Of a DNA stretch of 64,000 bases, positions 27,001 through 30,000 are shown in pieces (the stretch's first letter is position 1; every line of letters begins with the position of its first letter). This DNA is from Candidatus Aenigmatarchaeota archaeon. GTDB taxonomy: Archaea; Aenigmatarchaeota; Aenigmatarchaeia; Aenigmatarchaeales; Aenigmatarchaeaceae. The stretch lies in assembly GCA_043814985.1 (NCBI GenBank), contig JBDRJK010000019.1:64001-128000 (forward strand), read 5' to 3'. The position numbers are program-made.

Positions 27001-30000
27001 ATGGAACTGCTTAAGAAAATAAAAAATGCCCTTCCCAACACCACAATTGTTCTGGGCGGCATCCATGCGACATTCTTTGCTGACAAGATATTGAAGAACT
27101 ACAAGTTCATAGACTTTGTGGTCAGAGGAGAAGGTGAGATTGCCTTTACGGAACTGGTCAATAATCTGGGGAACAGGAAGAAACTGATAAATATCAATGG
27201 ACTGGCCCTTCGCGATAAAGGCAAGATAATAAGCAACGAGCCAAGCTTTATCTCTGATTTGGACTCCTTACCTTTGCCAGACAGAAGGCTTTTGGGGAAC
27301 AATGACTATTCACAGTACTGGTTTGGTCTGAAGCTTAACTTTGGAAAGTTCACCACGCTCCTGACATCAAGGGGGTGTCCGCACAATTGCAATTTCTGCT
27401 GTTGTTCCGCCCTGTTCAAGAGAAGATGGAGAACAAAGTCTGTAAAAAACATCCTTGATGAGTTGGAGGAGATGTACTTGCAGGGTTACGGGACCTGCAT
27501 TATTGTTGATGACAACTTTACCTTGAATCCCAAAAGAGTTGTTCAGATATGTAGGGGCATAAGAAAGAGAAAAATAAAGATGAATTTCCATTGCGAGGGA
27601 AGGGTCGACAGGACAGACCCCAAAATATTGAAGGAAATGAGAAAGGCAGGCTTTTCAACCATATACTTTGGGATGGAAAGCGGGGTCCAGAAGGCTCTTG
27701 ATTATTACAAGAAGGGGATTAAGGTTGAGCAAATCAAGAATGCTGTCAGGAATGTTAAAAAGGCTAGGATGAATGCTATAGGATCCTTCATAATAGGTTC
27801 CCCGGTAGAGACCAAGGAGGATGTAATGAAGACACTTGAATTCGCTTCTGGGTTGAAAATAGGTCTTCAGATAAACATACTAGAGCTTGTTCCAGGATCA
27901 GAGATATGGATGGATAATATTAAGAAGATGGGAAAGGACGACTGGAAGAAGGCGCATTTCATAACAGAATTCTATGACAACTTCACAAGAAAGGAGATGC
28001 TTTATTTTAGGGACTTGGGCTATAAGATGCTGTCTGAAAAGTGGATGAAAGTAAGTTCTGTGAAGGAACTGCCCAGCCTGTTGACAAGCTATAACGTAAA
28101 GGTTATAGTATCAAACATTTCCAAAGACCCATACTTATTCGTAAAACAGTTGAGCAAAATTCACAAAAAGGGTCTGTACCCTTTCAAGGTATGAGTATGG
28201 ATAAAACACAAAATGAAATAATCAAGACTGCTGCAGAAATTATTAGGAAAGGTCAAATAGTCGTGTATCCGACAGACACTGTCTATGGTATTGGTGGTGA
28301 TGCTACTTCTGAGGAGGTTGTTAGGAAAGTATACGAAATAAAGAGGAGACCTATGAATATGCCGATTTCAGTTCTTGTTTCAGACTTTGAAATGCTTGAG
28401 AAATATGCTGAAATAAACGAAGAGCAAATGGCTATCTTAAAGAAATTTTTACCAGGACCCTTCACCTTCATTCTAAAGCCAAAAATAAGGCTTTTTGTTT
28501 CTCGGGGTACAGTTGGGTTCAGAATACCAAATCACTGGTGCACCCTGATAGTTAAGGAATTTGGAAAGCCAATAACAACCACATCAGCCAACATACACCA
28601 ACAGACTACTCCTGATAACATAGAAAAAATAAGAGATAATTTTAAGGAATCTGTTTCTCTATACATAGATGAAGGAACTCTAGAAGGAAAGCCTTCAAAG
28701 GTTGTAGACTTGATAGATAGATTAAAAGTGATTAGAGAATGAAATACAAAAGGTTCAAACAATTCAAGGACCAGAGAAGGAAGATAGCAGAAGAGAGGAT
28801 AGAAATACTTGAAGGCATGGTAAAGAAGAAGCCTGAGTTCGAAAAGAGGTATAAAGAACTAATAAAAAGGATAGCTAAGAAATATAGATTAAACATTTAA
28901 ATATTAAAGACGTAAAGTGAGTTTATGAAACAAGTGCCACCACAGAAGATTGTAGAGAGAGTTTCAGAGAGACTGAAGAAGGACGAGAACATCAAGCCTC
29001 CACAGTGGTCTAAGTTCGTGAAGACAGGTATGTCAAGCGAAAGGCCCCCTATAAAAGAGGACTGGTGGTTTTCCAGGTCCGCAGCCATTCTGAGAAGGAT
29101 TTATGTTCATGGGCCTGTTGGCACGCAGAGACTTAGGACGTCTTTGGGAGGCAGGAGAAGAAGAGGACACAAGCCTGCTCACCGTGCCAGTGCTGGAGGA
29201 AAGATAATAAGGACAATTCTTCAGCAGTTGGAAAAGGCTGGTTATGTTAAAATAGTTGAGAATCCAAAAAAGGGAAGAGTAATAACGCCCAAGGGCCAGA
29301 AACTTTTGGAAAAGGCTGCAGGTGGATAAGATGAAGAGCGATGATGTCAAGCAGTTCGAGGATTTGAAGAACCAGACTCTCAGGAAGGTCCTGTCCAAAA
29401 ACGCCCTTGAAAGGCTTGGTAGAGTTAAGCTGGCAAACCCTGTGCTTGCGACCCAGTTGGAGATGTACTTGCTTCAGGCTTTCCAGACTGGCCAGTTGAA
29501 GGGAAACGTTGATGATAAAAAGCTGAAACAGATTCTCAATATCCTAGTTCCAAAAAAGAGGAAGACGAGTATCAAGAGAAAGTGATTATATGCCCAAGGC
29601 AAACCCATTAGCAAAAAAACTGAGACTGATAGCCGCTGGCAAGAAGAAGCCAGCTCCTAGATGGGCTGATCTGAAAAAGCATGGGAAGAGAGCTAGGACC
29701 AGAAGAATTGCTGTTCATGTTACAAAGCACTGGAGAAGAGGAAGACTAAAGAAATAATACTCTGACTATTATTTTATATTCATTCCAAGCAATTTTAAAA
29801 CATTTCTTACAAGAGGATGATTCATTATCCTGTCCAGACCATCCAGTTTTTCTATTGTGGCCAATATACCCAGAGTGTAGAGACCGTATAACAGTGGTAT
29901 GAGAAGGGAAAACCCATTGGGATAACCGTAGCTACCGCTTCCAATAACTGTTATTTCAACTATAATATCAACAACAGCGATAACCATGGCCAATATCAGG

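What a model noticed while it worked through the whole genome (the two positions that open the first line are those of the whole stretch)
28739..28900. Reduced RNase P: Rpp21 cut to its two helices and an RNA that has shed the T-loop module
The unannotated 53-aa gene g00773 before eS19 is RNase P subunit Rpp21 without its zinc ribbon, and the RNase P RNA (C19:31997-32262) has a specificity domain shrunk to a short stem. Most of the order shares both reductions: a second, independent route to a minimal RNase P, intermediate to type T.
Evidence so far: g00773 aligns (58% over 40 aa, E 3e-12) with the N-terminal half of a 106-aa orthologue at the same operon site in G003 that hits Pyrococcus Rpp21 at 4e-12. 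Orthologues in 33 of 42 order genomes, 45-67 aa in the loci read, full-length only in G003, G028-G031, intermediate in G025; full-length Rpp21 in 53 of 54 genomes of other orders. RNA: 84 model positions of the S-domain matched by 34 nt; order RNAs 228-280 nt mostly, some lacking P10-P12 wholly; G031, with full Rpp21, keeps the conserved-region motifs. Pop5, Rpp30, Rpp29 present.
(Added by a program. Inside this text positions count along the whole contig: contig position 64,001 is position 1 of the stretch shown here. "Call 12" and the like, gene names such as g00115 and contig names such as C1 are that model's own, and its searches are not shown. The text may have been shortened before it was handed on; [...] marks where a part breaks off. 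The agent that wrote the report below was given it as the finding of a first reader that could run no searches.)

Follow-up and report, generated by a model that had tools for sequence, protein, structure and literature searches.

The report
RNase P without its elbow grip
In one order of tiny DPANN archaea, the tRNA-trimming ribozyme RNase P has lost the near-universal RNA module that grips the tRNA elbow, and its Rpp21 protein has been cut down, more than once, to the two helices that bind its partner, so this reduced enzyme must hold tRNA in some other way.

Summary
Confirmed, with corrections. The 53-aa ORF (28739-28900) is the N-terminal two-helix half of Rpp21: a profile of short forms alone hits solved Rpp21 (E 1e-7), it keeps the Rpp29-contact residues, and it is under purifying selection. 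Of 42 order genomes, 28 have a zinc-free form, 2 a zinc knuckle, 5 a longer form and 7 none found. The CR-II/CR-III T-loop pair is in 0 of 32 order RNAs (one regex hit is the P9 loop) against 93 of 98 from sister orders. It is also missing where Rpp21 is long, so the RNA loss came first; truncation followed repeatedly (one origin rejected, p-AU 3e-10). Long Rpp21 goes with a retained P12 kink-turn (3 of 3, one clade). All 32 RNAs keep the L15 GGU that pairs with the tRNA 3' end, which most sister families lost. No HARP was found (0 of 42). It works like type T but fails type T membership, so it is an independent reduction. Activity is untested. The scan noted the same idea earlier from this genome's RNA (e1-7655481). 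Ten literature searches found no description.

The parts
28739..28900 (+). mini-Rpp21, 53 aa, two helices (model H2-30, H32-48), no cysteines; keeps A17, E19, R20, L24, R37, Y38 (= P. furiosus A14, E16, R17, L21, R38, Y39 of the Rpp29 interface). Its RNA partner lies outside the window (contig C19:31997-32262, locus L001:1501-1766): intact P1-P5 and P15-P16 with the L15 GGU; P7, P8, P9 plus a short P10-P12 remnant; no CR-II/CR-III pair; no P12 kink-turn
   Evidence: protein: residue roles from PMC4919917 passages; RNA:
28191..28742 (+). Sua5/YrdC-family gene; its stop overlaps the mini-Rpp21 start
   Evidence: PF01300, E 1e-49
28925..29329 (+). ribosomal protein eS19; lies downstream of Rpp21 within the same locus in 27 of the 30 order loci read
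29322..29585 (+). PF01984 dsDNA-binding (PDCD5-like, label recalled) gene of the same cluster

Best explanation
A working, reduced ribonucleoprotein RNase P. Shown in sequence: the order's RNAs lack the CR-II/CR-III T-loop pair, and what remains is predicted to be a helix (G000: GUCCAA/UUGGAC plus GGGC/GUUC capped by a loop ending in AU). Inferred history: this loss happened in the order's ancestor; the zinc ribbon of Rpp21, a subunit that in the solved holoenzyme covers the T-loops and P12 and holds L7Ae, then lost its job, decayed (second cysteine pair CxC), shrank to a knuckle and was deleted in several lineages, alongside loss of the P12 kink-turn. The two helices were kept because they pack on Rpp29 and keep it wedged between P1/P9 and the tRNA. 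Inferred mechanism: the precursor is held at the acceptor end (J5/15 adenosine anchor and L15 GGU pairing with the 3' RCC), cleaved by the intact P4 core with Pop5-Rpp30, and steadied near the T-arm by Rpp29 and the basic mini-Rpp21, not by an RNA T-loop platform.
For: Homology: short-only profile matches 214 of 274 phylum genomes; the listed hits outside the order lie in open frames of 94-198 aa; 18 of 21 members hit PRK03954. Selection: pN below pS in 11 of 11 pairs, dN/dS about 0.08-0.35 where computable, dN close to eS19's. RNA: YAGAAAH in 0 of 32 against 55 of 58; AGARA..UGRRA pair in 1 of 32 (G035, its P9 loop) against 93 of 98. A metatranscriptome contig, 185 nt without a mismatch, starts at the RNA's 5' end and spans the collapsed S-domain, with no cover outside the gene (one run, contigs only). 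Core helices covary (38 of 53 pairs). Pop5 and Rpp30 present in G000, Rpp29 in 38 of 42, L7Ae in 37 of 42, HARP in 0 of 42 with 4 control genomes ringing. tRNAs have normal T-loops, and tandem genes with 4- and 8-nt spacers need 5' cleavage. Tree: long forms nested above short-only clades; one clade of short forms rejected. P12 kink-turn in exactly G028, G029, G031. L15 GGU in 32 of 32 against 8 of 51 parsed; C74 encoded in 23 of 30 G000 tRNAs and 24 of 29 from other order loci against 10 of 32 in GGU-less families. Literature: S-domain-deleted M. jannaschii RNA works with Pop5-Rpp30 and is still stimulated by Rpp21-Rpp29 (PMC3001054 passages).
Against: No activity or structure data; folds are predictions. 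The remnant helix has only modest support: RNAalifold consensus energy -0.29 kcal/mol with 5 pairs and z -2.0 for the G000 S-domain; the hand-anchored count (89 of 95 paired, shuffle mean 70) selected for pairing and mis-anchored G020 and G029. The kink-turn link rests on one clade; the independent test, G003, has no RNA in its assembly. The GGU is ancestral (also in f9, f18, f25, f28, which keep T-loops), so it is retained, not gained; C74 was not scored in those families, and kin are not independent. The tree is a quick search with SH-aLRT only, 5 outgroup rows and uneven composition. In the P. furiosus type A system Rpp21-Rpp29 did nothing for an isolated C-domain. Which Rpp21 surface touches L7Ae was not resolved in the passages read.
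Confidence: 0.62

Rival explanations
1. The RNA keeps a single or disguised T-loop elbow contact, as modelled for Pyrobaculum type T, so the grip is simplified and not lost.
For: G031 has an unpaired UGGAA; family f2 has a conserved UGAAA hairpin in its one remaining stem; genus g1 has UUCGA in the remnant; the AU before the closing G recurs in most remnants. PMC13462272 models one CR-III T-loop in type T (passages; a model assumption there).
Against: In G000 the UUCGA is mostly paired (mean unpaired probability 0.39) and is not kept at that place outside the genus. G027 and G039-G041 have an uninterrupted helix with only a terminal loop.
Confidence: 0.2
2. Mini-Rpp21 is no longer part of RNase P and is kept only as a stabiliser of Rpp29 or as a basic peptide with another role in the eS19 operon.
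For: No Rpp21 was found in G036 and G037 (89-90% complete), which keep the RNA and Rpp29, so the subunit can be dispensable, as in type T.
Against: The invariant columns are the Rpp29-interface residues, and Rpp29 keeps the partner HE motif in 15 of 15 sequences printed.
Confidence: 0.08
3. The long forms in G003 and G028-G031 are re-acquisitions, so truncation happened once at the base of the order.
For: With gains allowed the tree needs only 3-4 changes.
Against: All 7 zinc-bearing forms in the order share a CxC second pair, while 7 of 7 outside proteins printed have CxxC. G003 is 53-56% identical to the short form. Four of the five long forms sit at the eS19 site.
Confidence: 0.08
4. Decay or artefact: a pseudogene or split gene, and an RNA damaged in assembly.
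For: These are metagenome-assembled genomes; the RNA was not found in 10 of 42.
Against: Purifying selection; 181 homologues of 25-112 aa in public collections, most listed ones 50-64 aa; no zinc-ribbon remnant between the gene and eS19; no second Rpp21-like ORF in the genome; independent RNA contig.
Confidence: 0.02

Closest known systems
Archaeal type T RNase P (Thermoproteaceae; Rfam RF02357; PMC3579882, PMC13462272)
   Same: Most of the S-domain gone, CR-II absent, no S-domain kink-turn, L15 able to pair with the 3' RCCA, Rpp21 affected.
   Different: Different phylum. RF02357 finds nothing in 5 of 5 genomes tried. P2 is 6 bp and J5/15 is 3 nt; P8 and P9 are kept in G000; Pop5, Rpp30 and Rpp29 match their Pfam models over nearly full length. 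Rpp21 is kept as two helices, not lost, except perhaps in family f7.
Archaeal type A RNase P (Rfam RF00373; P. furiosus, P. horikoshii)
   Same: Catalytic domain with P15-P16, the L15 GGU and a P16 kink-turn-like motif; P7-P9; scores above the RF00373 threshold.
   Different: No CR-II/CR-III, no P12 kink-turn in 29 of 32, no P6/P17 pseudoknot evident, Rpp21 without zinc ribbon.
Rpp21/Rpr2 (PF04032, PRK03954; PDB 1X0T, 2ZAE, 2KI7, 6K0A chain G)
   Same: Two N-terminal helices and the Rpp29-contact residues; position before eS19.
   Different: Lacks the four cysteines and the arginines whose mutation cripples P. horikoshii RNase P (PMC4919917 passages); loop between the helices is 4 residues shorter.
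Type M-like RNAs of sister Aenigmatarchaeota families (f16, f23, f26; this study)
   Same: As short (208-262 nt mostly).
   Different: The mirror image: they keep T-loops and full Rpp21 but have lost P16 and the L15 GGU.

Membership tests
Rpp21/Rpr2 | Sequence homology to solved Rpp21 | tested here: met
   Short-only profile E 1.4e-7; bridge through G003 at 3.8e-12; the five best Foldseek rows are Rpp21, though none is significant
Rpp21/Rpr2 | Two N-terminal helices with the Rpp29-interface residues E16, R17, L21, Y39 | tested here: met
Rpp21/Rpr2 | C-terminal four-cysteine zinc ribbon; Pfam or NCBIfam cut-off | tested here: not met
   No cysteine; PF04032 no hit; PRK03954 19.5 bits against 162. 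A truncated orthologue, not a canonical member
Rpp21/Rpr2 | Binds Rpp29 and functions in the holoenzyme | not testable with these tools
   Needs biochemistry
Type A archaeal RNase P RNA | Universal catalytic core (P4 pseudoknot, CR-I, IV, V) | tested here: met
Type A archaeal RNase P RNA | CR-II and CR-III interleaved T-loops | tested here: not met
Type A archaeal RNase P RNA | P12 kink-turn | tested here: not met
   Absent in G000; present in 3 of 32 order RNAs
Type T RNase P | Detected by RF02357 | tested here: not met
   0 of 5 genomes at E up to 1; no true type T genome among the controls
Type T RNase P | P2 of 3 bp and 2-nt P5/P15 linker | tested here: not met
   G000 has a 6-bp P2 and a CAA linker; features from PMC3579882
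Type T RNase P | P10 capped by a small loop or missing | tested here: inconclusive
   G000 keeps a P10-P12 remnant of about 38 nt; G022-G024, G026, G027 and G038-G041 lack it
Type T RNase P | Rpp21 absent | tested here: not met
   Present in 35 of 42; not found in 7, including both f7 genomes
Any RNase P | Cleaves pre-tRNA 5' leaders | not testable with these tools
   Indirect only: RNA in a metatranscriptome, no HARP, tandem tRNA genes

The most novel reading that the evidence does not exclude
This order has a natural ribonucleoprotein RNase P with no RNA elbow anchor at all, not even the single T-loop modelled for type T, that measures tRNA from the 3' end by L15-RCC pairing plus a protein wedge of Rpp29 and a two-helix Rpp21. 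Sister families made the opposite trade (T-loops kept, L15 lost), so within one phylum either anchor alone suffices, and the order keeps the whole step-wise series of Rpp21 loss.
Probability: 0.35. Interest if true: 0.8.

Novelty: new variant of a known kind. Interest (0 to 1): 0.62.

Why it matters
The CR-II/CR-III T-loop anchor is described as conserved in RNase P of all three domains, with type T the one archaeal exception, and how type T recognises tRNA was called an open question (PMC6565675 passages); only a model exists (PMC13462272). An independent lineage with graded forms (kink-turn plus long Rpp21, knuckle, two helices, possibly none; RNA remnant down to one hairpin) makes that question testable with natural variants, and separates the Rpp29-binding and RNA-binding jobs of Rpp21. 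It also warns that proteome surveys which score Rpp21 as absent may be missing 50-aa forms below family cut-offs.

Tried and rejected
Complex prediction of mini-Rpp21 with Rpp29: no verdict (runs 0.71, 0.01, 0.01); not used either way. Finding the RNA of G003, G010, G021, G030 (three searches) and G034 (two): nothing (G025 served as positive control). Real loss of L7Ae in G000: rejected, since its neighbourhood in G011 and G012 maps to the end of contig C19 and the flanking eS28, eL24 and tRNA-synthetase genes are missing too. A stand-alone zinc ribbon: the motif scan gave many cysteine ORFs, none tested beyond the profile search, which covers mainly the helices. Leaderless tRNAs as in Nanoarchaeum (recalled): TATA-like boxes start at -30 to -35 in 20 of 21, not one fixed distance, and tandem genes exist. 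RNA length as marker: rejected (medians 272 and 295.5, wide overlap). A loose motif regex over the whole RNA: too permissive (6 of 32 chance hits, shuffle rate 0.22-0.25), replaced by an S-domain-bounded one. The idea that the remnant's AUG is the start of CR-III: register ambiguous, since G031, G036 and G037 carry UGRAAC further down; not claimed. The GGU count (14 of 40) is crude and not used. The careful tree did not finish. The bacterial promoter scan is not informative here.

Full report
Setting. The window is G000:C19:64001-128000 of an 808-kb, 91% complete genome. The best relative by eS19 that carries a phylum name is titled Candidatus Aenigmatarchaeota (L253, 64%), and four of the five listed short homologues that carry an NCBI organism name say the same, the fifth Nanoarchaeota. 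GTDB kinship gives 42 genomes in the order, in 8 families.

The protein. ORF 28739-28900 encodes 53 aa without cysteine, between a Sua5 gene and eS19. Pfam misses it. Four lines identify it: the single sequence hits PRK03954 at 7.8e-4 and 18 of 21 short orthologues do so at E up to 0.01; a profile built from those 21 zinc-free sequences hits three solved Rpp21 proteins at 1.4e-7 to 2.3e-4; G003's 106-aa orthologue at the same site hits 1x0t at 3.8e-12; the AlphaFold model has two helices (pLDDT 91) and its five best Foldseek rows are Rpp21, none significant. The invariant columns I16, E19, R20, L24, Y38 align to P. furiosus I13, E16, R17, L21, Y39; PMC4919917 (passages) names E16, R17, L21 and Y39 as Rpp29-interface residues. 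pN is below pS in 11 of 11 pairs, with dN near that of eS19.

Distribution. Reading the loci gives 28 zinc-free forms, 2 knuckles (G010, G025), 5 longer forms (G003, G028-G031) and 7 genomes with none found (G016, G018, G022, G034, G036, G037, G041), of 42. G027's short form runs on into eS19 in another frame. All 7 zinc-bearing forms have CxC as second pair, so even the long forms are eroded. Outside the order, 118 of 125 sampled genomes have PF04032 over the cut-off (counted).

The RNA. It lies outside the window (C19:31997-32262). RF00373 finds it in 32 of 42 order genomes, and I read all 32. For sister orders I read 98 of the 101 genomes with a match among 125 sampled; left out were two partial hits and one f23 genome. 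In the first 58, chosen mostly for high score, the strict CR-II motif occurs 55 times against 0 of 32 (one of the 55, G066, is a chance match). To remove that bias I added 40 mostly low-scoring ones: the AGARA..UGRRA pair before J5/15 occurs in 93 of 98 against 1 of 32, and that one is the P9 loop of G035. Family f14 has worn flanks but mostly keeps both pentamers. G028, G029 and G031 lack the pair although their Rpp21 is long. Grades in the order: P7-P9 plus a remnant helix (G000 and most of f1); remnant with a P12 extension (G028, G029, G031, G036); P7 plus a small hairpin (G022-G024); one hairpin (G026, G027, G039-G041). A standard kink-turn with covarying stem (UC/GA, CC/GG, CU/AG) is in 3 of 32 S-domains, exactly the three long-Rpp21 genomes that have an RNA. 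They form one clade, so this is one event. The catalytic core covaries well; support for the remnant helix is modest.

Not an artefact. One groundwater metatranscriptome holds a 185-nt contig identical to L001:1500-1684, starting at the RNA's 5' end, and a second from a relative; nothing covers the flanks. This is one run, contigs only, and DNA cannot be excluded.

Rest of the enzyme. Pop5 and Rpp30 are in G000 and 4 of 5 genomes tried, Rpp29 in 38 of 42, L7Ae in 37 of 42. G000's only L7Ae-family hit is eL30; the true locus falls past a contig end. HARP is in 0 of 42. tRNAs have ordinary T-loops, and tandem genes need internal 5' cleavage.

History. A tree of 19 concatenated proteins of the ribosomal cluster, Rpp29 among them (42 rows, G040 dropped as too gappy, and G001, G007, G020, G034 had no region; quick search), has short-only clades (f4+f8, f2, G035) branching off before the long forms on branches of 96-99. 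With gains allowed it needs 3-4 changes; counting losses only by hand gives at least five. On 24 rows, one clade of 14 short forms is rejected (p-AU 3e-10). The simplest reading is RNA loss once, then repeated trimming of the protein.

What replaces the grip. The L15 GGU is in 32 of 32 order RNAs and 8 of 51 parsed sister RNAs (7 not parsed). Encoded C74 is in 23 of 30 G000 tRNAs and 24 of 29 from other order loci (14 with full CCA), against 10 of 32 in three GGU-less families. PMC10966300 (passages) proposes the same L15 route for type T. PMC3001054 (passages) shows that an S-domain-less M. jannaschii RNA is active with Pop5-Rpp30 and is stimulated by Rpp21-Rpp29, though the P. furiosus one is not stimulated. 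PMC6565675 (passages) places Rpp21 between Rpp29 and L7Ae, over the T-loops and P12. The mechanism is inference from these; the GGU is ancestral and families with both anchors exist.

Comparison and novelty. It works like type T and is not a member. Ten full-text searches found no account of a truncated Rpp21 or of such RNAs in this phylum; the library lacks most subscription journals. PMC4919917 mentions a smaller RNA in the nanoarchaeon Nst1, with Rpp21 present. Papers seen: passages of PMC6380272, PMC6565675, PMC4919917, PMC13462272, PMC10966300, PMC3001054 and PMC4245976; the first third of PMC3579882; the others as listings only; no supplements. The original type T paper was not read.

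Verdict. A real, order-wide, independently reduced RNase P; a new variant of a known kind; interest 0.62.

Noticed in passing
window 7755-11747: AcnX large and swivel subunits, an amino-acid-kinase-family gene and a NUDIX gene in a row, followed by a 346-aa gene that looks like type 2 IPP isomerase (recalled, not tested): likely the archaeal modified mevalonate pathway in a small DPANN genome.
   Followed up: partly
L001:1708-1741 and the other order RNAs: A helix between P2 and P4 (P19 position) often carries an RGAUGA..GAU internal loop resembling a kink-turn; also seen in f18. Possibly another L7Ae site; read by eye only.
   Followed up: no
L001:1553-1565: An extra hairpin between P5 and P7 in many order RNAs and several sister families, where type A has the P6 strand.
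   Followed up: no
   Followed up: no
L144, L143, L145 and other family f14 RNAs: Worn CR-II/CR-III flanks together with loss of the L15 GGU, yet a PF04032 match in 16 of 17 genomes: possibly a second lineage starting to erode.
   Followed up: partly
G021 (98% complete): Pop5, Rpp30, Rpp29, L7Ae and mini-Rpp21 are present but no RNase P RNA was found by three searches: unassembled or too divergent.
   Followed up: partly
L153, L154 (G036, G037; family f7): No Rpp21 before eS19 or elsewhere by profile search: candidate complete loss, as in type T.
   Followed up: partly
window 26767-28194: B12-binding radical SAM gene directly upstream of Sua5.
   Followed up: no
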